This document shows, one piece after another, positions 10,727 to 49,031 of a DNA stretch of 59,916 nt. The notes under the pieces are model-generated. The model was given only the letters and a program-made list of their open reading frames with translations. It was not told where the DNA came from and did not search any database. Positions within the stretch are counted from its first letter, which is position 1; each line of letters begins with the position of its first letter. Position numbers and translations under genes: made by a program. The DNA lies in UHGV virus genome UHGV-0126570; one strand, given 5' to 3'. This DNA comes from a virus.

Positions 10727-10951
10727 ATGGTTAATGCCAATCCTTGCTCACGTCCAGAATTCATCTGGCGTTTTCACTCCCTGCAAAAACACTGCGATCA
10801 CTTCGCAATTGCCGCAACTGAAAAAGAAGCCCGTTCTCTGATCCCTGATCAGTATGGCGTTCTCACTGGTCGTTTCTCTACTTCCCCACAACCAAACACC
10901 AATCCCTGGTATCGCAATATTACCAATCCCGGCATTGCGGAGGCTCACTGA
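10727..10951 (+). CDS. Small protein, paralog of the 47875-48090 product
   Basis: 74 aa; shares EFIWRF(H/Y)S.QKH...AATE.EARS with the second copy, which supports a real gene. Confidence 0.5.
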   Translation: MVNANPCSRPEFIWRFHSLQKHCDHFAIAATEKEARSLIPDQYGVLTGRFSTSPQPNTNPWYRNITNPGIAEAH

Positions 10952-11658
10952 TGGATATCTGCATTCTCGAAAAGCCATCAATGACCAGCATTGAGATCGC
11001 GGAGCTGGTGGGAAAACGTCATGACAATGTGAAACGCACTATTGAGACATTAGCCAAAGGTGGCGTTATTGCTCGTCCTCAAATTGAGGTTTTCGAAAAA
11101 ATCAATAACTTAGGACTACGGCGTAGTGTTGAGGCTTACGTCTTCGAAGGCGAGCAAGGCAAGCGCGATAGCATTATCGTCGTCGCGCAGCTCTCTCCCG
11201 AATTCACTGCCCGGCTGGTGGACCGCTGGCGCGAACTGGAAGAACAAGTACGCCAGCCGTTGACCGAAATAGAGATGATCGCCGCAATGGCTGCAAATGC
11301 AGTTCAGCAGCAAAAGCGGCTTCATGCTGTTGAGTCAAAGGTTAGCCAGGTCGCTGAAACCGTCGAGCAAATCAAGAAAGGCAATATTCCGGAAGGCTAC
11401 ATTGGCTACCGCCAGCTGGCGGCGAAATGTGGCCTGACTGAAGCCAAATGTCGCAACCTGGTTAACGCTTACCGGATTCCCACCGATACACATGAGTTTT
11501 TAACTCCAGAGGGGGTATTGTCGCGTCGTTCCATCGTGGCCTTATCTCCCTTCATGAATGCTTTTAACCGGATGATGTCGGAGGCTGAACACCGAGGAAA
11601 ACGCTGGTATCACCCCAAAATGGGGCAATTCCAGGTGATCGGTTGGGGAGGTGAATGA
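10951..11658 (+). CDS. Rha-family phage regulatory protein (antirepressor-like), truncated relative to the paralog at 48090-49031
   Basis: N-terminal MTSIEIAELVGKRHDNVKRTIE is Rha-like; long stretches are near-identical at nucleotide level to the second copy (e.g. 11180-11240 vs 48320-48380). Confidence 0.55.
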   Translation: MDICILEKPSMTSIEIAELVGKRHDNVKRTIETLAKGGVIARPQIEVFEKINNLGLRRSVEAYVFEGEQGKRDSIIVVAQLSPEFTARLVDRWRELEEQVRQPLTEIEMIAAMAANAVQQQKRLHAVESKVSQVAETVEQIKKGNIPEGYIGYRQLAAKCGLTEAKCRNLVNAYRIPTDTHEFLTPEGVLSRRSIVALSPFMNAFNRMMSEAEHRGKRWYHPKMGQFQVIGWGGE

Positions 11659-11855
11659 TGGACATCATGCAAGCGGTAAAAAAAATCAGGGAAGAACAGG
11701 CTGAAGTGTGCCGCCGTAAAGCATGGAGTGTTGGTGTATGGGCCTGGCCTGATAATTACTCTACTACCGGATGGTTTTGTATTAATGGACTCCAGATCCG
11801 GGAAGTTTATTTATCGACGGCTGATATAGTCGGTAATGATTGGATCGTGACTTGA
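11655..11855 (+). CDS. Short ORF homologous to the C-terminus of the full-length Rha paralog (split gene fragment)
   Basis: EVCRRKAWSVGVWAWPDNY...DWIVT aligns with ...TVCRRSSWPEGIWVWPEGG...DWIVS at the end of the 48090-49031 product, so copy 1 appears interrupted. Confidence 0.45.
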   Translation: MMDIMQAVKKIREEQAEVCRRKAWSVGVWAWPDNYSTTGWFCINGLQIREVYLSTADIVGNDWIVT

Positions 11856-20741: not shown

Positions 20742-20942
20742 TTGCGTTTACTTAACGTGGCTGAACTTATCCCTGCTGGTGCTAACGTTGTTGCTCGCCG
20801 TCGTTCCTGGCAGCAACCATTGTGTGTTGAGTTGTTGAAACACAGCAATGGAACAATAGAGGCTCGGAATATTGTCACTGGTGATAAGGTTCACATTACC
20901 CCGGAAAGTACAGGCGCTGATGATTGGGAGTTTGTACATTGA
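20742..20942 (+). CDS. Hypothetical small protein (66 aa)
   Basis: TTG start with GGAG 8 nt upstream. Confidence 0.35.
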   Translation: MRLLNVAELIPAGANVVARRRSWQQPLCVELLKHSNGTIEARNIVTGDKVHITPESTGADDWEFVH

Positions 20943-22562: not shown

Positions 22563-23220
22563 TATGTTAGAAATCTAATTTCATCAAACGAACATATTGA
22601 TTGTGAGAGTAACTTAACTTAGAATTTTCCTTGCTGGTGGAGCGTTGCCACATTTCGCTTGCTGGGCTTGATAGTCACTTATTGGTTGTTGTTCGCCCAC
22701 CAGCAAATAACAAATTAAAGTGTTAGAAAATTACATGCATACAGGGACTCGCTTTGGCACCGAGCAAGCCAAAGTTCAGCAGGTTTAGTGCGTAAAGTGG
22801 TTTCAGAGAGAGCACTTTACGGAGTAAACAACAAGACATGTTGAGCCACGGAAGGTCTTTTTAAGATGTTCATTGATGATGGTCCGGCAGAGAGTAACGG
22901 GACTCGCCGCATCGAATCATCATCAATGCACATCCTCAACATTAAGGAGGCATAGGGATTTTTTTGTGGCGATTACCTTTTGCCCTAAGTCTCCTTAATG
23001 TTGCGGTAATGCACCTATGCGGATGCGGCCTTGCATTGTGTCTTGAAAGAATGGGGTAAGGCCGGGGATATCCCCAGGGGGAGGCACCCCCGCTGCAACG
23101 AACAGCCACAGACGGCAGTCGAGTGATGGAAACGTGCAAAGACTTTAAACCTCGTTACGGCTGGCGTGGCAAACGCGACAACCGAGACAGAGCGGTGACG
23201 GGCGGAGAGAGTGCCGCATC

Positions 23221-23341
23221 AAGAAAGAAGCCGACTTGTGATCCCTTTCTGCGGGCATTTGAAAGTGAATCCAGCTCAGGCAGTCGGCTTCTTTCTTGTG
23301 TGAGATGTAGCGTATTTGCCCATCTTCGGGTGGGCTTTTTT
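23221..23341 (+). ncRNA. Candidate small structured RNA (16-bp stem-loop plus intrinsic terminator)
   Basis: AAGAAAGAAGCCGACT (23221-23236) pairs with AGTCGGCTTCTTTCTT (23282-23297); then GCCCATCTTCGGGTGGGC followed by TTTTTT (23318-23341). The overlapping 85-codon ORF (23123-23380) runs through both hairpins and is probably not coding. Confidence 0.3.
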
Positions 23342-23801
23342 AGGGTTTTCGTCATGGTTAGCGACTTTGCGGCGGTTTAGAACCCGACCATTAAAGTAAA
23401 TGCAAACGATGATCTGATGATGGTAGCGGCCTAAGAAGCCTGACGCCACGGGGTATGAGTCGTCCCCCGTCAAAAAATCGACCGCAGAGTGTCCCCGTCT
23501 GTGTATTAGGGAACGGGGAGGCATAACAGGCAAGGGCGCTGGTGTGATTAACCAGATGAATGAGAAGGGTCAGGTCTTTCTGGTCAGCGCCCTTACCTGT
23601 TACGTCCCTCCCGCGTAACAGCCATTGATTAATGGCTTTCTGGGATAACATCCTACTACGGGTATATCCCGTCATGCTGAAGGCGCTAATCACGCTGGAA
23701 GCCAGGGTTGTGCATCCCCTGTTACCGAATTGCAGCCAGGGCGCGGTGCGCCGAAAAGCATACGGAGGTGGAAGCCCTCGCCGGAGACGTAACCGGCAAG
23801 T

Positions 23802-23878
23802 GATGGTGTAGCTCAGTAGGATAGAGCAGCAGCCTTCTAAGCTGTCGGTCGGTGGTTCGAATCCACCCACCATCGCCA
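23802..23878 (+). tRNA. tRNA-Arg (anticodon UCU; decodes rare AGA)
   Basis: Manual cloverleaf: acceptor GATGGTG/CACCATC, D-arm GCTC-AGTAGGATA-GAGC, anticodon stem GCAGC/GCTGT with loop CTTCTAA, T-arm GGTGG-TTCGAAT-CCACC, encoded CCA. Confidence 0.8.
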
Positions 23879-23880
23879 AT

Positions 23881-23956
23881 GCCGGTTTAGCTCAGTTGGT
23901 AGAGCGCCTGCCTTGTAAGCAGGATGTCAGCGGTTCGAGTCCGTTAACCGGCACCA
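23881..23956 (+). tRNA. tRNA-Thr (anticodon UGU)
   Basis: Acceptor GCCGGTT/AACCGGC, D-arm GCTC-AGTTGGTA-GAGC, anticodon stem CCTGC/GCAGG with loop CTTGTAA, T-loop TTCGAGT, encoded CCA. Confidence 0.8.
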
Positions 23957-23964
23957 ACACAACA

Positions 23965-24039
23965 GGTAAGGGTATTTTGCGACGTCGGAGATCGCCGTGC
24001 TTGGCAGAGGGTTCGAATCCCTACGAAGTACCCTTACCG
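23965..24039 (+). ncRNA. Non-canonical tRNA-like element (acceptor-like stem plus T-loop, no canonical D/anticodon arms)
   Basis: GGTAAGG(G)...GGGTTCGAATCCC...CCCTTACC: a 7-8 bp terminal helix and a perfect T-loop consensus, but the interior cannot be folded into a cloverleaf. Either a tRNA pseudogene or an RNase P-type processed regulatory RNA. Confidence 0.3.
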
Positions 24040-24421
24040 TTGTGATGAAGTGCAGCTCTTTGAAGCAACCAGAAGATAAGCATCTGGCTTCACAACATAA
24101 ACCGCAGGAACGACCAATAAACGGTAGTCCGTATGGAGAATACCCCGTTGAGGAAGAGGCCTGGCCGGAACCGTAACCGGCACTACAACGTTGAGAACAC
24201 TGACGTAACGGGGTCATATCCCAATCTACGAATAAATGTTGCGTTGCAGCGTGACAACCAGTGTTCTCAACGTTGTGGTGGATTCGCAGACTGATGCGAT
24301 AGCTTTCTTGGATGTTAGGGAAATGCGGCCGCAAACCTTCCCTTTCGCGAGCGGTGATCGTCCGTAGTCCTAATTGGCTGCACCGTATGCCGGAGATTCA
24401 GTACCGGCCACCACAACGGCC

Positions 24422-24508
24422 GGAGAGTAGGGAGCATGGTGCTCAAGCGGTCTTGAAAACCGTCCCATTGCGCAAGCGATGATGGTTCGATTCCATTACT
24501 CTCCGCCA
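24422..24508 (+). tRNA. Probable type II tRNA, tRNA-Ser (anticodon UGA)-like
   Basis: Acceptor GGAGAGT/ACTCTCC, anticodon arm GCGGT-CTTGAAA-ACCGT (close to E. coli serT), 17-nt variable region, T-arm GATGG-TTCGATT-CCATT, encoded CCA. D-arm and variable arm are atypical. Confidence 0.55.
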
Positions 24509-24775
24509 GCGCAACGTTAAGAGTATTTGGCTAATTAAGCGAATGCCGGAAGCAGAACCGGATCAACAAATGCGTACAGGCGTCATCGCCGCCCAGCCAG
24601 CCAAGTGCTCTTACCATTGCGGTGAATGCGGCTAAGCGCACGCGGAACAGTTAAAACAATCCTCCTTAGTGGTTAAGTCAAACATCCCGGCGTTAATTGT
24701 TAACTGGTTAACGTCACCTGGAGGCACCAGGCACCGCAACCTAATAAATACGTCATGTTTATTGAGGGATAACCA

Positions 24776-25210
24776 ATGTTCGGTAAATTTTTCGGTAAGA
24801 AAGTCGCTTCAGCAAAAGTAGAGCTGAAAAGGGTTGAGAATCGCGATCTGATGGAGGCCATTATCGGTGGCTGTTTGTTGGTGTCTGCCGCAGATGGTGA
24901 AATCGAAAAGGAAGAAACAGCGAAACTTGATCAGCTTGTCCGCTCTAATCCTCGCTTAAGTCATTTTGGCAACGAAATTACCGCAACAATCACCCGTTTT
25001 ACTGAGCAACTGGAAGCTGGTTTCCGTGTTGGTCGCATGAATATCCTTCGCGAAATTGAAGATATCAAAAATGATCCAAAAGAAGCGGAAGAAGTATTCG
25101 TTAACATGCTGACGATTGCAGAAGCGGACGGTGAAATCGAGCCAGCAGAACACAAAGTACTGGAAGAAGTAGGCCGTCGTTTGGGCCTTCGTGTGGAAGA
25201 TTATCTGTAA
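24776..25210 (+). CDS. TerB-like domain protein (tellurite-resistance TerB / TciA-like)
   Basis: 144 aa with the paired acidic helices typical of the TerB fold (...LLVSAADGEIEKEE...LTIAEADGEIEPAEHKVLEEV); GAGGG RBS. Adjacent to the tRNA-Ile2 gene, as tciA is adjacent to trnI in P1. Confidence 0.65.
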   Translation: MFGKFFGKKVASAKVELKRVENRDLMEAIIGGCLLVSAADGEIEKEETAKLDQLVRSNPRLSHFGNEITATITRFTEQLEAGFRVGRMNILREIEDIKNDPKEAEEVFVNMLTIAEADGEIEPAEHKVLEEVGRRLGLRVEDYL

Positions 25211-25374
25211 TGATTGGCAAGGCGCGTATTGCGTGCGCCATTGGTTTTCTCGTTTTGTCCGTGCTGGTGGATTTCACCAGCAAAGTGATGTCGGTGTTGG
25301 CTGATGGGGCACTGGTTTCAGTAGCTGTGGTATTGCTATTGCCGATTATTAAAGCTGCGTTCAGGAACTCATGA
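25210..25374 (+). CDS. Small membrane protein (54 aa), not in ORF track
   Basis: Start overlaps the upstream stop (TAATG); MIGKARIACAIGFLVLSVLVDF...VAVVLLLPII has two hydrophobic helices. Confidence 0.4.
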   Translation: MIGKARIACAIGFLVLSVLVDFTSKVMSVLADGALVSVAVVLLLPIIKAAFRNS

Positions 25375-25484
25375 TGGATTTTTGGACGTATATTGATAAG
25401 AACCCTGGATGGTCTTTGCTATTTCTTCTTGTGATCGTATACGGAGTAGAACAAGTAGCGAAGAATCTCAGGCGTCGAAAATAA
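25371..25484 (+). CDS. Small membrane protein (37 aa), not in ORF track
   Basis: ATGA overlap with the previous ORF; MMDFWTYIDKNPGWSLLFLLVIVYGV...RRRK has a single TM and basic tail. Confidence 0.35.
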   Translation: MMDFWTYIDKNPGWSLLFLLVIVYGVEQVAKNLRRRK

Positions 25485-25493
25485 AAACTAATT

Positions 25494-25569
25494 GGCCCCT
25501 TAGCTCAGTGGTTAGAGCTGGCGACTCATAATCGCACGGTCACCGGTTCAAGTCCGGTAGGGGCCACCA
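25494..25569 (+). tRNA. tRNA-Ile2 (anticodon CAU, lysidine-type; decodes rare AUA)
   Basis: GGCCCCTTAGCTCAGTGGTTAGAGC...CTCATAA...GGTTCAAGTCC...AGGGGCCACCA; acceptor and D-arm essentially identical to E. coli ileX. Cannot be formally distinguished from elongator Met by sequence alone. Confidence 0.75.
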
Positions 25570-26022
25570 TATTTGGTTGTAACACGGCGTATGGCACATG
25601 CGTCGTTAGCGGTCTGGTGACGTTATAGGGGTTACCTTTTCCCCTAGCTCAGGCAACAAACCAGGTAGCCGGAATGTGCAAGCCCCGTTCATATCGTCGG
25701 ACCGAGGACTCACCATCCTGGCGATTCGGTGTGACAGCCGGAAGAGTACGGCGCACAACAGGAAAAGGCGTTTAATTAACGTGAGCGCCGTTTCCGTTGT
25801 GGTAATTGCGGCTATGCGCTCGTGACGAAGCCATTTTCATTCACTACGTTCTGATAAGTGACGTCGCCAGGAGTGGCTAACCTGGCAGGTGGAGGCACCA
25901 CCGCCACAACTCCTTTCAATTCATCATATAGCCGCTCAGGCTGTAACCCTTAATTAATACGAAGTTTCGACATCTCTATCGGTTTAACCGAGGGATGGTC
26001 GCGCGTGTAAAAAGGAGACGTT

Positions 26023-26598
26023 ATGTTAACGGCGAACGATAACGCGTATGCAGAAGCAGATCTCATATTGAGTGACTTCATCGGTCAGCGGGAACGCTGG
26101 ACACAAAAGCGAGAGGAACTTTATGCCTCGTTAGTTCGCAAAGGTGTCAACATTGAAACCGCTCAAAGCGGCGATATGACGGTAGTCAGTGTTGGATTAC
26201 ATGGTGTGAGCGTGTCCGCAGCCAATCATGAGCCATACGTAGCGTTATCCGAGTCGATGGCAAGGCTAATTAAGTTTCTGAAGCAAACAGAAGCCAATAA
26301 TGTTTTCATCGCCAAAAAGAACATCAATTTTTCTGCCGCCATGTTCTGGATGATGAAGGGGCTGGATGCCCGCCGGGCATCATGGCCTAAAGGGAGCTAT
26401 TTATCGATGTTCCGTGGCAGCATTGGCAGCAAAGAAAAGCTCTTCGAATTCTTGCCGGAAGAGGCATTCGATATTGTGGAAGGGTGCGATGTGATGGTTA
26501 TGCCTCGCCTGGTAATGATGAATGGGGATTTACAGGCGCAGACAGACTGGTTCGCAACTGGCGTGGATATTATCGCAACTGACTGGGAGGCATTCTGA
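26023..26598 (+). CDS. Fusion protein with C-terminal DUF2829-like (Tad2-like) domain
   Basis: C-terminal AAMFWMMKGLDARRASWPKGSYLSMF ... MPRLVMMNGDLQAQTDWFATGVDIIATDWEAF follows the DUF2829 signature as recalled from memory; N-terminal ~100 aa unassigned. Confidence 0.4.
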   Translation: MLTANDNAYAEADLILSDFIGQRERWTQKREELYASLVRKGVNIETAQSGDMTVVSVGLHGVSVSAANHEPYVALSESMARLIKFLKQTEANNVFIAKKNINFSAAMFWMMKGLDARRASWPKGSYLSMFRGSIGSKEKLFEFLPEEAFDIVEGCDVMVMPRLVMMNGDLQAQTDWFATGVDIIATDWEAF

Positions 26599-26990
26599 TG
26601 TACGAGACAACAAAATTAAGCATTCACGAAGTCTCCAACGTGGAGTGGAATATCGTCACCTGTAAGATTGTATCGTGTAATGCTGCGCGTACTGATGCAG
26701 GCCATAAGAGCACGATAACAGGCTACATGGTAATGGCTTATAGGGGATTGAGAGTTCGCTTTATCTGGAAAGCTCGGCAATTGACACCATTCAGAGAGCC
26801 GTCAATGCCATTAGAGGTAGAACAGGATTATTTAAGCCTGCCGGAAATAGACGGTGCAACGCTGGTGGATTCTGATGGTCGTAAGGCTGATTTTGAAGTC
26901 AGCTTAAAGGTGGCGCAGGCCGTAATTAATAACTCACGTGGTAAGTGGATCGCTAAGGTAAAACACGTCGTTCGCTTATCTCGCTGGTAG
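26598..26990 (+). CDS. Hypothetical protein (130 aa)
   Basis: Translationally coupled (ATGA overlap) to the DUF2829-like gene. Confidence 0.4.
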   Translation: MYETTKLSIHEVSNVEWNIVTCKIVSCNAARTDAGHKSTITGYMVMAYRGLRVRFIWKARQLTPFREPSMPLEVEQDYLSLPEIDGATLVDSDGRKADFEVSLKVAQAVINNSRGKWIAKVKHVVRLSRW

Positions 26991-27020: not shown

Positions 27021-27098
27021 TAACCAACTTTTTGCCAGTCTATACAGAAATAACATTCTCATTATCATCCCCTCGGTCATTTCCTGCCCGGGGGATTA

Positions 27099-27491
27099 AT
27101 GGAGCATATCAGCAGCGCAGAAATTGCGGATATCATGATTAGGGCTGACTGCTATCTGACAGTCACCGAAATTACCACTCTAGCTAAAGAAAAATATCCT
27201 CACCTTCATGTTTCACGCGTAAGTGTAACCAACATCATTCGGCATTTTGTGCGGTCAAGCCGAGCTATTTGTGAGCTTGATGATCGTGTTTACCCACGGA
27301 AATACTGGTTGCATGGCCTGAACGGATATCAGTTCAAGGTGCGCGGGCGCACCCCTGAATACGGCAGTTTGCTGGTTAAAAACTGTAGCCGGAAGTCTGC
27401 AGAACTGGCGCGACAAGAGCAGCGCAAGCTGGTGGACATGGCTAATAAGCTGTGGAATGCCGCAGTTAAAAAGCGTGGTGTTGCTTTATGA
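27099..27491 (+). CDS. Hypothetical protein (130 aa)
   Basis: First gene after the operator-like palindrome; stop/start overlap with the pacA-like gene. Confidence 0.45.
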   Translation: MEHISSAEIADIMIRADCYLTVTEITTLAKEKYPHLHVSRVSVTNIIRHFVRSSRAICELDDRVYPRKYWLHGLNGYQFKVRGRTPEYGSLLVKNCSRKSAELARQEQRKLVDMANKLWNAAVKKRGVAL

Positions 27492-33301: not shown

Positions 33302-33774
33302 AAACTTATTACCCATCTCTGAATTGTTACCCGTCTTCCTATCCAGAATTATCCGGGAAGCTGTTAGCTCTATTAGCTAAAGCACCTACGGAATGGTTTA
33401 AGCCAGTCGTTATCAATCCACACTTCCTGGATTACGGATCTGTTCGCACTCGTAACGAACTCAAAAACCTACTGGCGCATGGATTCATTCGACACCGTGC
33501 CGGGAAAGGCTATCAGTTAGCGATTGCGCCAGAAGAGGCCGTGCGGCTATTCGCATATCGTGACAGCCAGACAAAAGCTCGGGTAATAGCTCAAATACTT
33601 CATAACGGCAGCACCTATGCCCGCCAGTTTGGCGGCGACACGTCGCAGTTCTTGCGGGCGGTGCGATCGCTGGAGGAGCAAGGAGTTATTGAAAGTTCCT
33701 GTCTTCCTGTTCCTACCGTTCCACATATCAAACGTCGGGTTTACACCTTCACGCAGAGAGCTAAAAAACAATGA
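33298..33774 (+). CDS. Hypothetical protein with winged-helix-like segments
   Basis: GTG start overlapping the upstream stop; two helix-turn-wing-like stretches (NLLAHGFIRHRAGKGYQLA, LRAVRSLEEQGVIES). Confidence 0.4.
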   Translation: MKTYYPSLNCYPSSYPELSGKLLALLAKAPTEWFKPVVINPHFLDYGSVRTRNELKNLLAHGFIRHRAGKGYQLAIAPEEAVRLFAYRDSQTKARVIAQILHNGSTYARQFGGDTSQFLRAVRSLEEQGVIESSCLPVPTVPHIKRRVYTFTQRAKKQ

Positions 33775-34265
33775 TTTACGTAAAAGTGAAACGCCTACAT
33801 CCGGCAGCAAAACTTCCAGCTTATGCCACCTCCGGATCGGCGGCGATGGATTTTGAGGCTGTTGAAATAAAACCATGCGTCGATAGCAATGGTGCAATTT
33901 CCTCAAGCTGGTGGGTGTATACCGGACTGGCTATGGAGATCCCGCCCGGCTGGTGTCTGAAACTCTATCCGCGATCAGGATTGGGCTGCAAAAAACATAC
34001 TCGCCTGGCTAACTGCGTAGGAATTATCGACTCCGATTATCGCGGCGAAATCATGGCAAAACTGATTACTGATCCAGGCGGGGAAGGCGTTTGTCTCAAG
34101 CCTGGAATGGCTGTCATGCAAGGAATTTTTGAGCGTGTTGAACAAGTCTCACTAGTCGAGGTTGAGGAACTCAACGAAACGGAGCGTGGTGCTGGTGGCT
34201 TTGGTAGCACATCGGAAGGCCACTTTGAAATTAAGCGTTCACCGCTTCAGTACGAAAAGTTATAA
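33771..34265 (+). CDS. dut: dUTP diphosphatase (trimeric dUTPase)
   Basis: Motifs AAMDF, RSGLG, GIIDSDYRGEI, ERGAGGFGSTS in canonical order. Confidence 0.85.
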   Translation: MIYVKVKRLHPAAKLPAYATSGSAAMDFEAVEIKPCVDSNGAISSSWWVYTGLAMEIPPGWCLKLYPRSGLGCKKHTRLANCVGIIDSDYRGEIMAKLITDPGGEGVCLKPGMAVMQGIFERVEQVSLVEVEELNETERGAGGFGSTSEGHFEIKRSPLQYEKL

Positions 34266-34279
34266 GCAGAGAAAAGACT

Positions 34280-34957
34280 ATGAATAACAAGCCAACGAAA
34301 GAGCTTTTTAAGCTCCTTCCCAAATACAAAGCTCACAAAAACGTTAGTGCATCGAAAATCAAAAATGTTGTTATTTTCGGAGTAACTGATACCCCACTTT
34401 GGGGCAGCATCGAACTCGTTGAACCTAAAGGGGCAACAGTTTGTGTTGACGCAATGTTTTTACAAAAACACCGACCAAAAACTGGCGGGTATCTGATCGT
34501 TTATGAAAACGGTTATCTGTTCTATGCCCCGGAGAAACCATTTGAGGAACGCTATGGCCTGGTTAACGACGCCTCCAAAAATGGAACCACGGTCATCATT
34601 ACGGATGACAACGGCGAGATGATTAATCTTACCGGGAGCGTAACTATTTCTGCTGGTGGCATCACCACCCAGCAAGAAGAAATCGACCTTGAAGCAGCCG
34701 ACTTTTCTGACGCGCTGATGTGGCTGAAGGATGGCAAGAAAGTTGCTCGACGCGGGTGGAACGGCGAAAACCAATTTTGCTGGCTGGTTCCTGAAGGACA
34801 GTACCCGGCACGAATGGAAGCCATTAAGGGATATTTCCCCGGCGACCTCGTTCCGTATGGTGCTTATTTCGCCTTAAAAAATGCACAAGGTGTAGTTGTT
34901 CCGTGGGTGCCTTCAGTTGGCGACCTGCTGGCCTGTGACTGGTTTGTTGTGGAGTGA
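34280..34957 (+). CDS. Fusion protein: unknown N-terminal domain plus C-terminal DUF2829-like (Tad2-like) domain
   Basis: C-terminal DALMWLKDGKKVARRGWNGENQFCWLVPEG ... VVPWVPSVGDLLACDWFVVE follows the DUF2829 signature (A..W.K.GKKV.RRGWNG ... PW.pS..DLLA.DW.vvE) as recalled from memory. Confidence 0.45.
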   Translation: MNNKPTKELFKLLPKYKAHKNVSASKIKNVVIFGVTDTPLWGSIELVEPKGATVCVDAMFLQKHRPKTGGYLIVYENGYLFYAPEKPFEERYGLVNDASKNGTTVIITDDNGEMINLTGSVTISAGGITTQQEEIDLEAADFSDALMWLKDGKKVARRGWNGENQFCWLVPEGQYPARMEAIKGYFPGDLVPYGAYFALKNAQGVVVPWVPSVGDLLACDWFVVE

Positions 34958-47874: not shown

Positions 47875-48090
47875 ATGGCTACTATCCCTACCCCAACTCA
47901 TTCTGAATTTATCTGGCGTTTCTATTCCTGCCAAAAACACCTGTATATCTGCGTCATGGCTGCTACCGAAGCAGAAGCTCGTTCATACCTTCCTGAAGAA
48001 CCCTGCATTTTTGCCGCACGCTTCACTCTTGATGCGATGGAGATCCTAAATTACTGGAATCTGCCAATGAACTGCGTGGAGGTGCACTGA
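47875..48090 (+). CDS. Small protein, paralog of the 10727-10951 product
   Basis: 71 aa sharing the EFIWRFYSCQKH...AATEAEARS block. Confidence 0.5.
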   Translation: MATIPTPTHSEFIWRFYSCQKHLYICVMAATEAEARSYLPEEPCIFAARFTLDAMEILNYWNLPMNCVEVH

Positions 48091-49031
48091 TGAATCTGTC
48101 CATCTCTCAAAAAGCGACAATGACCAGTATTGAGATCGCGGAACTGGTAGGTAAGCGTCATGATAATGTGAAGCGTACCATTGAAGTATTAACTAAAGGT
48201 GGTGTCATTCAATTTCCTCAAATTGAGGAAATTGAAAATAAACAATCAGTTGGCCCTCGTCGATTTTCCAAGGCTTACATATTTGAAGGCGAACAAGGAA
48301 AACGAGACAGCATCATTGTCGTCGCGCAGCTCTCTCCGGAATTCACCGCCCGGCTGGTGGACCGCTGGCGCGAACTGGAGAATGCCCGGGTACAGTTAAA
48401 ATCAAAAGCCGAAATCCTGGCTGAAATGGCGCAAATGCATCTTGAGCATGAACGCCGGATCAACGCCGTAAATGCCCAGGTAGCCGAGGTATCAGCACAA
48501 GTATCGATGGTCGCTGAAACACTCGAGCAAATAAAGAAAGGCAATATTCCGGAAGGCTACATTGGCTACCGCCAGCTGGCGGCGAAATGTGGCCTGACTG
48601 AAGCCAAATGTCGCAACCTGGTTAACGCTTTCCGGATTCCCACCGATACGCATGAGTTTTTAACTCCAGATGGTTTGCTTGCGCGACGCTCCATTGTGGC
48701 CCTGGCCCCCTTCCGGAAAGCCTTTAAGCAGGTGATGTCGGAGGCAGAACCACGCAATAAACGCTGGTATCATCCAAAGATGGGGATGTTTCAGGCAATC
48801 CACCATCCTGTGCCTGAAAGCCCAAAGGATAATCTGTCACTACATACCGTCAGAGAGAAGATCAGGACTGGATACGCAACAGTGTGTCGTCGTTCTTCCT
48901 GGCCTGAAGGTATATGGGTGTGGCCCGAAGGTGGATCACGAAAGCACTGGCGCACCATCCGTGACGGGAAAATCCATGCTATTGATTTAGCTCCAGAGGA
49001 TGTTATTGCTATGGACTGGATTGTTAGTTAA
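48090..49031 (+). CDS. Rha-family phage regulatory protein (full-length copy)
   Basis: N-terminal MTSIEIAELVGKRHDNVKRTIE; 313 aa, including the C-terminal W-rich segment that is a separate ORF in copy 1. Confidence 0.55.
   Translation: MNLSISQKATMTSIEIAELVGKRHDNVKRTIEVLTKGGVIQFPQIEEIENKQSVGPRRFSKAYIFEGEQGKRDSIIVVAQLSPEFTARLVDRWRELENARVQLKSKAEILAEMAQMHLEHERRINAVNAQVAEVSAQVSMVAETLEQIKKGNIPEGYIGYRQLAAKCGLTEAKCRNLVNAFRIPTDTHEFLTPDGLLARRSIVALAPFRKAFKQVMSEAEPRNKRWYHPKMGMFQAIHHPVPESPKDNLSLHTVREKIRTGYATVCRRSSWPEGIWVWPEGGSRKHWRTIRDGKIHAIDLAPEDVIAMDWIVS

What the first reader, a model, noticed from the sequence alone, without database searches (positions are those of the whole stretch)
26023..26990. 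Second DUF2829-like fusion protein between the tRNA cluster and the terminase genes
The 191-aa product ends with ...AAMFWMMKGLDARRASWPKGSYLSMF...MPRLVMMNGDLQAQTDWFATGVDIIATDWEAF, a more divergent copy of the DUF2829 signature, again after an N-terminal extension. It is translationally coupled to an uncharacterised 130-aa gene. Two distinct DUF2829-like fusions in one phage would suggest sponges with different ligand specificities.
Basis: partly seen in the sequence, partly recalled or inferred. Interest (0 to 1): 0.6.

Follow-up and report, generated by a model that had tools for sequence, protein, structure and literature searches.

The report
Divergent second Tad2-like phage-plasmid protein
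This D6-like E. coli phage-plasmid really does encode a second, divergent copy of the Tad2 "immune-signal sponge" domain, fused to an uncharacterised N-terminal domain and paired with a small partner gene; its usual ligand-binding loop is altered, so what it binds, if anything, is unknown.

Summary

The window is a D6-like P1-family phage-plasmid, and the gene is D6 orf6.

The 191-aa protein keeps both ligand-stacking Trp residues and two Asp residues. It has lost the diphosphate-binding Asn-Gly of the GWNG loop (now SWP-K) and changed S-x-T-D to T-x-V-D.

The gene always sits just upstream of lpa in P1-family elements, in an accessory slot.

My best reading is a specialised or re-targeted sponge. 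No ligand was tested, so this is inferred. Tad2 versatility and Tad2 carriage by D6/P1 plasmids are already published. I rate it a new variant of a known kind, of moderate interest.

The parts
26023..26598 (+). orf6-type gene, 191 aa (equivalent to phage D6 gp006/orf6): a two-domain protein, acidic (pI 5.0), 21.4 kDa
   Evidence: ORF list. 92% aa identity to D6 gp006, annotated 'hypothetical protein'. phrog_7362 E=1e-125. dN/dS 0.095 against D6. AF2 model mean pLDDT 88.4.
26023..26310 (+). N-terminal domain (residues 1-96): helix, helix, three strands, long helix. It has no sequence relatives outside this family, and its fold resembles dsRBD and 1r7l.
26311..26595 (+). Tad2-like (DUF2829, PF11195) domain, residues 97-191, with an altered ligand loop: SWP-K instead of GWNGK, and T-G-V-D instead of S-x-T-D
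26598..26990 (+). orf5-type partner gene, 130 aa, basic (pI 9.4), translationally coupled to orf6; RsaM-like fold; a very small family
34280..34957 (+). The 'first' fusion: a 225-aa protein with a canonical Tad2 domain (residues 141-224) of the ModTad2 type, directly downstream of a dUTPase gene
   Evidence: PF11195 E=1.8e-22. phmmer E=5.5e-20 to ModTad2 9eib/8v3e and 6e-9 to SPO1 Tad2 8sme. GWNG and W-V-P-S-V-G-D are retained.

Best explanation
Orf6 (26023-26598) is a cytoplasmic two-domain accessory protein of a D6-like P1-family phage-plasmid. Its C-terminal half is a true Tad2-fold domain. I think it most likely acts as a counter-defence 'sponge'. In this reading the Tad2 domains oligomerise as in solved Tad2 tetramers, build inter-subunit pockets lined by the two retained Trp residues (W121, W176) and Asp residues (D169, D182), and sequester a nucleotide-derived host immune signal. 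Because the diphosphate-clamping Asn-Gly of the canonical GWNG loop is gone, the ligand is probably not bound in the way SPO1, Hgm or Mod Tad2 bind gcADPR or His-ADPR. Orf6 would then complement the canonical ModTad2-like copy at 34280-34957 rather than duplicate it. The acidic N-terminal domain is most likely an extra oligomerisation or partner-docking module. The co-translated basic Orf5 (RsaM-like fold) is an accessory subunit confined to the closer relatives. Shown here: gene reality, domain identity and fold, the pocket substitutions, the conserved architecture, synteny and coupling. Inferred: oligomerisation, ligand binding, anti-defence role, time of expression, and any Orf6-Orf5 contact.
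Against: No ligand, oligomer or phenotype was tested. The residues most directly tied to ADPR-diphosphate binding are missing. Across the subfamily the N26 position is unconstrained (P, R, D, M, H, N, G) and the D79 position is D, S or C, which also fits loss of the pocket. The retained Trp residues and the C-terminal DW are family-wide and could be purely structural. The position immediately upstream of lpa is conserved from Escherichia to Pantoea, so a role linked to the phage programme cannot be excluded. No promoter or P1-type C1 operator was found near the gene. PADLOC and NCBIfam give nothing.
Confidence: 0.45

Rival explanations
1. The Tad2 fold has been repurposed. Orf6 no longer binds a small molecule and acts as a protein-binding or regulatory adaptor, possibly in complex with basic Orf5. 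Its role would be tied to the phage-plasmid programme (the lpa and packaging neighbourhood) or to direct inhibition of a host protein.
For: The canonical Asn-Gly is lost and the polar pocket positions are unconstrained across the subfamily. A conserved extra N-terminal domain is present. Synteny with lpa is strict across genera. Orf6 has pI 5.0 and Orf5 has pI 9.4, and they are translationally coupled. The partner's best structural match is the regulator-associated RsaM fold.
Against: Both ligand-stacking Trp residues are invariant over a family with only 20-30% identity. P1 lacks the gene, so it is not core to the P1-type cycle. lpa has its own promoter in P1 and a promoter-like site in the window at 27041-27068. 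Orf5 is missing from several homologous loci, so an obligate complex is unlikely.
Confidence: 0.27
2. Orf6 is a redundant sponge. It binds the same Thoeris signals (gcADPR and/or His-ADPR) as the canonical 225-aa copy and simply adds dosage or different timing.
For: It has the same fold, with W25, W73, D67 and D79 equivalents retained. Some Tad2 proteins are broad Thoeris inhibitors (PMC12393519).
Against: The N26 and Gly positions are lost. In HgmTad2, N22 and G23 of both protomers bind the diphosphate, and the W21A/N22A mutant loses binding. Li et al. report that only about 1% of Tad2 proteins have a non-canonical gcADPR site. The two domains are only about 26% identical.
Confidence: 0.1
3. 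orf6-orf5 is an addiction (toxin-antitoxin-like) cassette occupying the slot where P1 carries phd-doc. This would be in line with the RefSeq label 'MW1434 family type I TA system toxin'.
For: It is a coupled two-gene cassette in the phd-doc slot of a low-copy plasmid prophage. PGAP gives the 'MW1434 family type I TA system toxin' name to orthologues.
Against: The name traces to a purely bioinformatic listing of an 81-aa phiSa2 prophage ORF (PMC6266405). Orf6 is a soluble, acidic, well-folded two-domain protein with no hydrophobic helix, unlike type I toxins. orf6 occurs without orf5 in the Enterobacter plasmid and in locus L002. Neither protein hits a TA family in Pfam, NCBIfam or PADLOC.
Confidence: 0.05
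4. Orf6 is an AcrIIA7-type anti-CRISPR.
Against: Li et al. could not reproduce Cas9 inhibition by AcrIIA7/HgmTad2 or its homologues. From general knowledge, the hosts here (Escherichia, Salmonella, Shigella) do not normally carry type II-A CRISPR.
Confidence: 0.02

Closest known systems
ModTad2/MoTad2 (PDB 8V3E, 9EIB): sponge for type II Thoeris His-ADPR and for Pycsar cUMP/cCMP
   Different: The 191-aa protein has SWP-K instead of GWNGK and T-G-V-D instead of S-V-S-D. It carries a 96-residue N-terminal domain and has a coupled partner gene. The window's other copy (225 aa) is the true ModTad2-like one (E=5.5e-20).
SPO1 Tad2 (gp34.65; PDB 8SME/8SMF/8WJE): type I Thoeris gcADPR sponge
   Same: Best Foldseek hit (E=4.9e-5, TM 0.73 normalised by the target). 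Equivalents of W25, D67, W73 and D79 are retained.
   Different: N26 becomes P with deletion of the next Gly; S76 becomes T; T78 becomes V; the H71 equivalent is T. The protein is 191 aa and two-domain, against 89 aa and single-domain.
HgmTad2 / AcrIIA7 (PDB 8KBI) and SptTad2 (8WJD): dual gcADPR and cyclic-dinucleotide sponges
   Different: The insertion is the short type. The CDN-pocket residues (R31, S47, F70, N85 in HgmTad2) are not conserved. The gcADPR residues N22 and G23 are lost.
Phage D6 gp006/gp005 (orf6/orf5) and their orthologues in D6-like plasmids
   Same: Orthologues: 92% and 77% aa identity, in the same order and position. Homologues are found in 125 PLSDB plasmids.
   Different: None functionally. 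These are annotated only as 'hypothetical protein' or 'MW1434 family type I TA system toxin'.
RsaM/TofM-type quorum-sensing regulators (BCAM1869, PDB 4O2H): relevant to the partner Orf5 only
   Different: 11% identity and no Pfam or NCBIfam hit. The genomic setting differs (a phage-plasmid, with no luxI/luxR neighbours). This is a fold resemblance only.

Membership tests
Pfam PF11195 Tad2-like / DUF2829 domain | Score at or above the curated gathering cut-off over most of the profile | tested here: met
   38.7 bits against 25; profile positions 2-72 of 73; E=1.5e-9. All 18 family members match.
Pfam PF11195 Tad2-like / DUF2829 domain | Tad2 fold: N-terminal helix, antiparallel sheet, C-terminal helix and strand ending in DW | tested here: met
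Tad2 immune-signal sponges (functional family) | Ligand-stacking Trp pair (SPO1 W25 and W73) and pocket Asp residues (D67, D79) | tested here: met
   W121, W176, D169 and D182 align to these positions. W121 and W176 are invariant in the subfamily.
Tad2 immune-signal sponges (functional family) | GWNG loop: Asn (SPO1 N26 / Hgm N22) and Gly (Hgm G23) that bind the ADPR diphosphate; and the S-x-T-D motif | tested here: not met
   The loop reads SWP-K, with N replaced by P and the Gly deleted. S-x-T-D reads T-G-V-D.
Tad2 immune-signal sponges (functional family) | Homotetramer with inter-protomer pockets | not testable with these tools
   Only monomer prediction was available and no coordinates were accessible.
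Tad2 immune-signal sponges (functional family) | Binds and sequesters an immune signal, and rescues phage from Thoeris, CBASS or Pycsar | not testable with these tools
   Requires biochemistry and plaque assays.
dsRBD (double-stranded RNA-binding domain): N-terminal domain | Helix, three strands, helix fold | tested here: inconclusive
dsRBD (double-stranded RNA-binding domain): N-terminal domain | RNA-contact motifs (KKxAK at the start of helix 2, and the GPxH loop; from general knowledge), a basic surface, and a Pfam dsrm hit | tested here: not met
   Helix 2 begins EPYVALSES. The domain pI is 5.3, and 10 of 13 homologous domains are acidic. No dsrm hit at E<=1 in 18 members.
RsaM/TofM family: partner Orf5 | Sequence membership, and a genomic setting between luxI and luxR | tested here: not met
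Type I toxin-antitoxin toxin ('MW1434 family', the PGAP label) | A small hydrophobic membrane peptide controlled by an antisense RNA | tested here: not met
   Orf6 is a 191-aa, acidic (pI 5.0), confidently folded alpha/beta two-domain protein with no hydrophobic helix. The label derives from a bioinformatic list (PMC6266405). No NCBIfam model matched in release 20.

The most novel reading that the evidence does not exclude
Orf6, alone or with the RsaM-fold partner Orf5, is a sponge for an immune or signalling molecule not yet assigned to any phage sponge. It would use a Tad2 pocket rebuilt without the ADPR-diphosphate clamp, or the second pocket at the insertion interface. D6-like phage-plasmids would then carry two Tad2 paralogues covering different host pathways. 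An even more unusual variant is that the Tad2 domain acts as a sensor of host immune signals and feeds into the neighbouring lpa-controlled lytic programme.
Probability: 0.15. Interest if true: 0.7.

Novelty: new variant of a known kind. Interest (0 to 1): 0.4.

Why it matters
Tad2 is the most widespread known family of phage proteins that soak up bacterial immune second messengers. Its members have repeatedly led to the discovery of new signals; His-ADPR was identified using ModTad2 as bait. A conserved paralogue that keeps the aromatic walls of the pocket but has lost the phosphate clamp, and that is carried alongside a canonical copy in about 125 sequenced D6-like plasmids of E. coli, Salmonella and Shigella, is a reasonable bait for finding another signal. 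Alternatively it could be a clean example of a sponge fold recruited to a different job. It would also correct a misleading RefSeq product name ('type I TA system toxin'). The general ideas are already published: that Tad2 proteins have diverse specificities, and that D6/P1 phage-plasmids carry Tad2. The gain is therefore incremental unless a new ligand or mechanism emerges.

Tried and rejected
- phmmer of the 191-aa protein against all 506 window ORFs found only itself. The second copy was found by a motif scan plus Pfam.
- NCBIfam and PADLOC gave no hits for either protein.
- An exhaustive representative search found only 18 relatives at E<=1e-3. The word-index searches found 10 proteins for Orf6, 8 for Orf5, and only truncated Orf6 forms for the N-domain profile. 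No other domain partner for the N-domain was found.
- A PDB profile search with the N-domain gave only spurious ankyrin-repeat hits.
- I tested whether neighbours of distant homologues (139-aa, 126-aa, 94-aa and 164-aa ORFs) are related to Orf5. They are not.
- The P1 C1 operator consensus ATTGCTCTAATAAATTT has no match in the window at up to 3 mismatches, so C1 control could not be shown. No sigma-70-like promoter was found directly upstream of orf6.
With the single protein it returned only 79-100% identical D6-like contigs.
- The Ant C-terminus and two 66-aa ORFs look Tad2-like by eye. They are not significant with Pfam, with my Tad2 HMM (E about 0.8-2), or with hhalign (7.9%), so I do not count them as Tad2 domains.
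- Rfam found nothing for the conserved hairpins.
- No supplementary tables were held for PMC12393519, so I could not check whether an orthologue was among the 18 Tad2 proteins tested there.

Full report
**What the window is.**
The region around the finding is 100% identical to E. coli plasmid CP099081.1 and 88% identical to phage D6. D6 is a P1-family phage-plasmid. In D6 the two ORFs are orf6 (gp006) and orf5 (gp005), both annotated 'hypothetical protein'. They lie between tciA/tciB plus tRNAs and lpa-pacA-pacB-c1.

In the window the order is as follows:
- tRNA-Arg, tRNA-Thr and tRNA-Ser
- tciA (TerB, 24776-25210) and tciB
- tRNA-Met(CAT) at 25494-25569
- a 450-bp spacer
- the 191-aa ORF (26023-26598) and the 130-aa ORF (26598-26990)
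- lpa (27099-27491), pacA and pacB

**Check of the observation.**
- It has an AGGAG ribosome-binding site.
- It overlaps the next gene by one base (TGATG), and a GGGAGG site lies inside its 3' end.
- Both genes are under purifying selection against D6 and a 55%-identical homologue. dN/dS is 0.095-0.18 for orf6 and 0.11-0.32 for orf5, and both orf6 domains are constrained.

**Is it a DUF2829/Tad2 domain?**
Yes.
- Pfam PF11195 (now named 'Tad2-like') matches residues 102-190 at 38.7 bits, above the curated cut-off of 25 (E=1.5e-9).
- An AlphaFold2 model built on an 18-sequence family alignment has mean pLDDT 88.4.
- The top five Foldseek hits against the PDB are all Tad2 structures: SPO1 Tad2, ModTad2, SptTad2 and HgmTad2/AcrIIA7.

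**Is there a second copy, and are the two related?**
A motif scan plus Pfam located the 'first' fusion at 34280-34957 (225 aa; PF11195 E=1.8e-22).
- Its C-terminal domain is canonical. phmmer gives E=5.5e-20 to ModTad2 and 6e-9 to SPO1 Tad2.
- The two window proteins align over their Tad2 domains: BLASTP E=8e-4 at 26% identity, and profile against sequence 96.8%, E=2.6e-10.
- Their N-terminal extensions are unrelated.

D6 itself carries both genes, as do several plasmids that appear in both tblastn lists. A 2025 preprint that screened phage-plasmids already reports Tad2 in 93% of D6-like and 56% of P1-like elements (10.1101/2025.09.12.675607).

**How the divergent copy differs.**
I aligned the solved Tad2 proteins, the 225-aa copy and the 191-aa family. 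I then mapped the ligand residues reported for SPO1 Tad2 (W25, N26, I63, T65, D67, H71, W73, S76, T78, D79) and HgmTad2 (W21, N22, G23, S90, T92, D93).
- The 225-aa copy keeps GWNG and W-V-P-S-V-G-D.
- The 191-aa protein keeps W121, D169, W176 and D182.
- Its loop reads S-W-P-K: Asn is replaced by Pro and the following Gly is deleted. S-x-T-D has become T-G-V-D.

In HgmTad2, N22 and G23 of both protomers hold the diphosphate, and the W21A/N22A mutant loses binding. Li et al. estimate that only about 1% of Tad2 proteins have a non-canonical gcADPR site.

Within the 191-aa subfamily the Asn position is unconstrained (P, R, D, M, H, N, G) and the D79 position is D, S or C. Subfamily-specific motifs appear in the insertion: G132, (G/F)(V/L)P145 and MP161(R). 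The insertion is of the short type, and the HgmTad2 cyclic-dinucleotide pocket residues are not conserved.

**The rest of the protein and its family.**
Residues 1-96 form a confidently predicted helix, helix, three-strand, long-helix domain.
- It has no Pfam hit in any of 18 family members and no PDB sequence homologue.
- It lacks the dsRBD RNA-contact motifs, and it is acidic in 10 of 13 homologues.

I therefore do not call it an RNA-binding domain.

An exhaustive search of 1.8 billion representatives found only 18 relatives at E<=1e-3. Most are 190-270 aa with the same two-domain architecture. A few (108-151 aa) carry the same 'SWP-type' Tad2 domain alone.

**The partner.**
Orf5 has no family hit and only 8 clusters of relatives.
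- It is basic (pI 9.4, against 5.0 for Orf6).
- Its model (pLDDT 86.7) is a three-strand long beta-meander plus two C-terminal helices.
- Invariant residues include W17, C22, C27, W57, D77, W117, K120 and H123.

It accompanies orf6 homologues at 55%, 39% and 33% identity. It is absent next to 42-44%-identical ones and next to distant ones. It is therefore linked to orf6 but not obligatory.

**Genomic logic.**
In every informative locus the gene lies just upstream of lpa. This holds for Escherichia, Salmonella and Shigella plasmids, an Enterobacter plasmid, a Pantoea plasmid and several metagenomic P1-like contigs.

P1 has no homologue. At that slot it carries humD, phd-doc, pdcA and pdcB, and its lpa has its own C1-controlled promoter. 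The window has a promoter-like site at 27041-27068 in front of lpa.

Upstream, window 23315-24296 and 25241-25755 are homologous to the P1 ban operon, running from the dicF-like region and tRNAs to the trnI-ban spacer. So orf6 stands where ban stands in P1. This suggests early, repressor-controlled expression but does not prove it. No P1-type operator exists in the window.

**Interpretation.**
The domain assignment is secure. For function, I favour a sponge with a changed or narrowed specificity that complements the canonical ModTad2-like copy (0.45). The reasons are as follows:
- the fold and the two aromatic pocket walls are invariant under strong divergence
- the gene is accessory and co-carried with a canonical copy
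- Tad2 proteins are experimentally known to bind at least five signal classes in two pockets (PMC12393519; 10.1101/2023.11.15.567273; 10.1101/2024.01.03.573942)

The main rival (0.27) is that the fold has been repurposed as a protein-binding or regulatory module together with Orf5. This rival is supported by the lost phosphate clamp, the unconstrained polar pocket positions, the extra domain and the rigid synteny with lpa.

The remaining readings are unlikely, for the reasons given under each rival:
- a redundant gcADPR/His-ADPR sponge (0.10)
- an addiction cassette (0.05)
- an anti-CRISPR (0.02)

The RefSeq name 'MW1434 family type I TA system toxin' rests on a bioinformatic listing of a phiSa2 prophage ORF (PMC6266405). 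It should not be read as functional evidence.

**Novelty and score.**
Known already:
- DUF2829 is the Tad2 domain
- Tad2 proteins are functionally diverse
- D6/P1 phage-plasmids carry Tad2
- public databases already tag this protein with PF11195

New here:
- a distinct two-domain 'SWP-type' subfamily lacking the Asn-Gly clamp
- its coupled RsaM-fold partner
- its fixed position before lpa
- its co-occurrence with a canonical copy

I rate this a new variant of a known kind, with interest 0.4. It would rise to about 0.7 if a new ligand or a sensing role were shown.

Noticed in passing
window 23077-23093 and 25888-25904 (flanks 23032-23106 and 25843-25917); also L001, L002, L003, L005, L006, L009, L012, L013: A conserved two-hairpin motif that is not in Rfam. 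It consists of a variable hairpin, then a single A (C or G in some related loci), then a 5-bp stem with an invariant AGGCA pentaloop, followed in the window by GC..CAAC. There are 2 window matches against 0.04 expected. Across related P1/D6-like loci the stems are GGGGG/CCCCC, GGTGG/CCACC, GCTGG/CCAGC and CCGGG/CCCGG, which gives compensatory changes at 3 of 5 pairs. The two window copies bracket the tRNA-tciAB cluster, and the second lies 134 nt upstream of the orf6 ATG. It could be a boxB-like antitermination site or an RNA-processing site.
   Followed up: partly
window 11655-11855 (+), 20742-20942 (+), 48846-49031 (+): Two 66-aa ORFs (phrog_7385 and phrog_7206) and the C-terminal 60 residues of the 313-aa Ant/Rha-like protein share a pattern that looks like a miniature DUF2829 domain: 'helix, then RR-x-SW, then ...D-x-x-x-DW-(I/E)-x-V'. 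The resemblance is not statistically supported: there is no PF11195 (Tad2-like) hit at E<=10, my Tad2 HMM gives E about 0.8-2, and hhalign gives 7.9%.
   Followed up: partly
window 10951-11658 plus 11655-11855, compared with 48090-49031: There are two Ant/Rha-like paralogues. At one locus the 66-aa 'mini' module is a separate overlapping ORF after a 235-aa Ant-like gene. At the other it is fused as the C-terminus of a 313-aa protein. This is a split-versus-fused pair within one element.
   Followed up: no
window 34280-34957, with D6 NC_050154 88129-88506 and phage RCS47: The N-terminal extension of the canonical Tad2-like gene is modular. D6 matches only residues 100-225 (99% identity). In the P1-like phage RCS47 the homologue is annotated as split by an insertion (isaA, an IS1-associated ORF). 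The gene sits directly after a dUTPase gene (33771-34265). Bacillus phages JL and Shanette also show a Tad2-like match overlapping or adjacent to a dUTPase gene.
   Followed up: no
window 25494-25569 and 24422-24508: ARAGORN calls the first a tRNA-Met(CAT), but the homologous P1 gene is annotated tRNA-Ile2 (trnI, ileX-like). The tRNA-Ser(UGA) scores 46.6 bits on the Rfam tRNA-Sec model, just under its cut-off of 47, which is probably only the effect of its long variable arm.
   Followed up: no
window 24618-24738 (+): A sub-threshold Rfam match to the sRNA STnc100 (39.4 bits against a gathering score of 47, E=2.6e-6) lies just upstream of tciA. It overlaps a boxA-like TGCTCTTA at about 24606-24613 and a 39-nt stretch that is repeated at 74% identity at 25784-25822, upstream of orf6.
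   Followed up: no
L009 5881-6675 (also L010, L011): In a more distant P1-like element the orf6 homologue is followed by a 94-aa and a 164-aa gene pair before lpa. This could be a toxin-antitoxin pair in the slot where P1 has phd-doc. That would support the view that the region upstream of lpa is a swap site for accessory cassettes.
   Followed up: no
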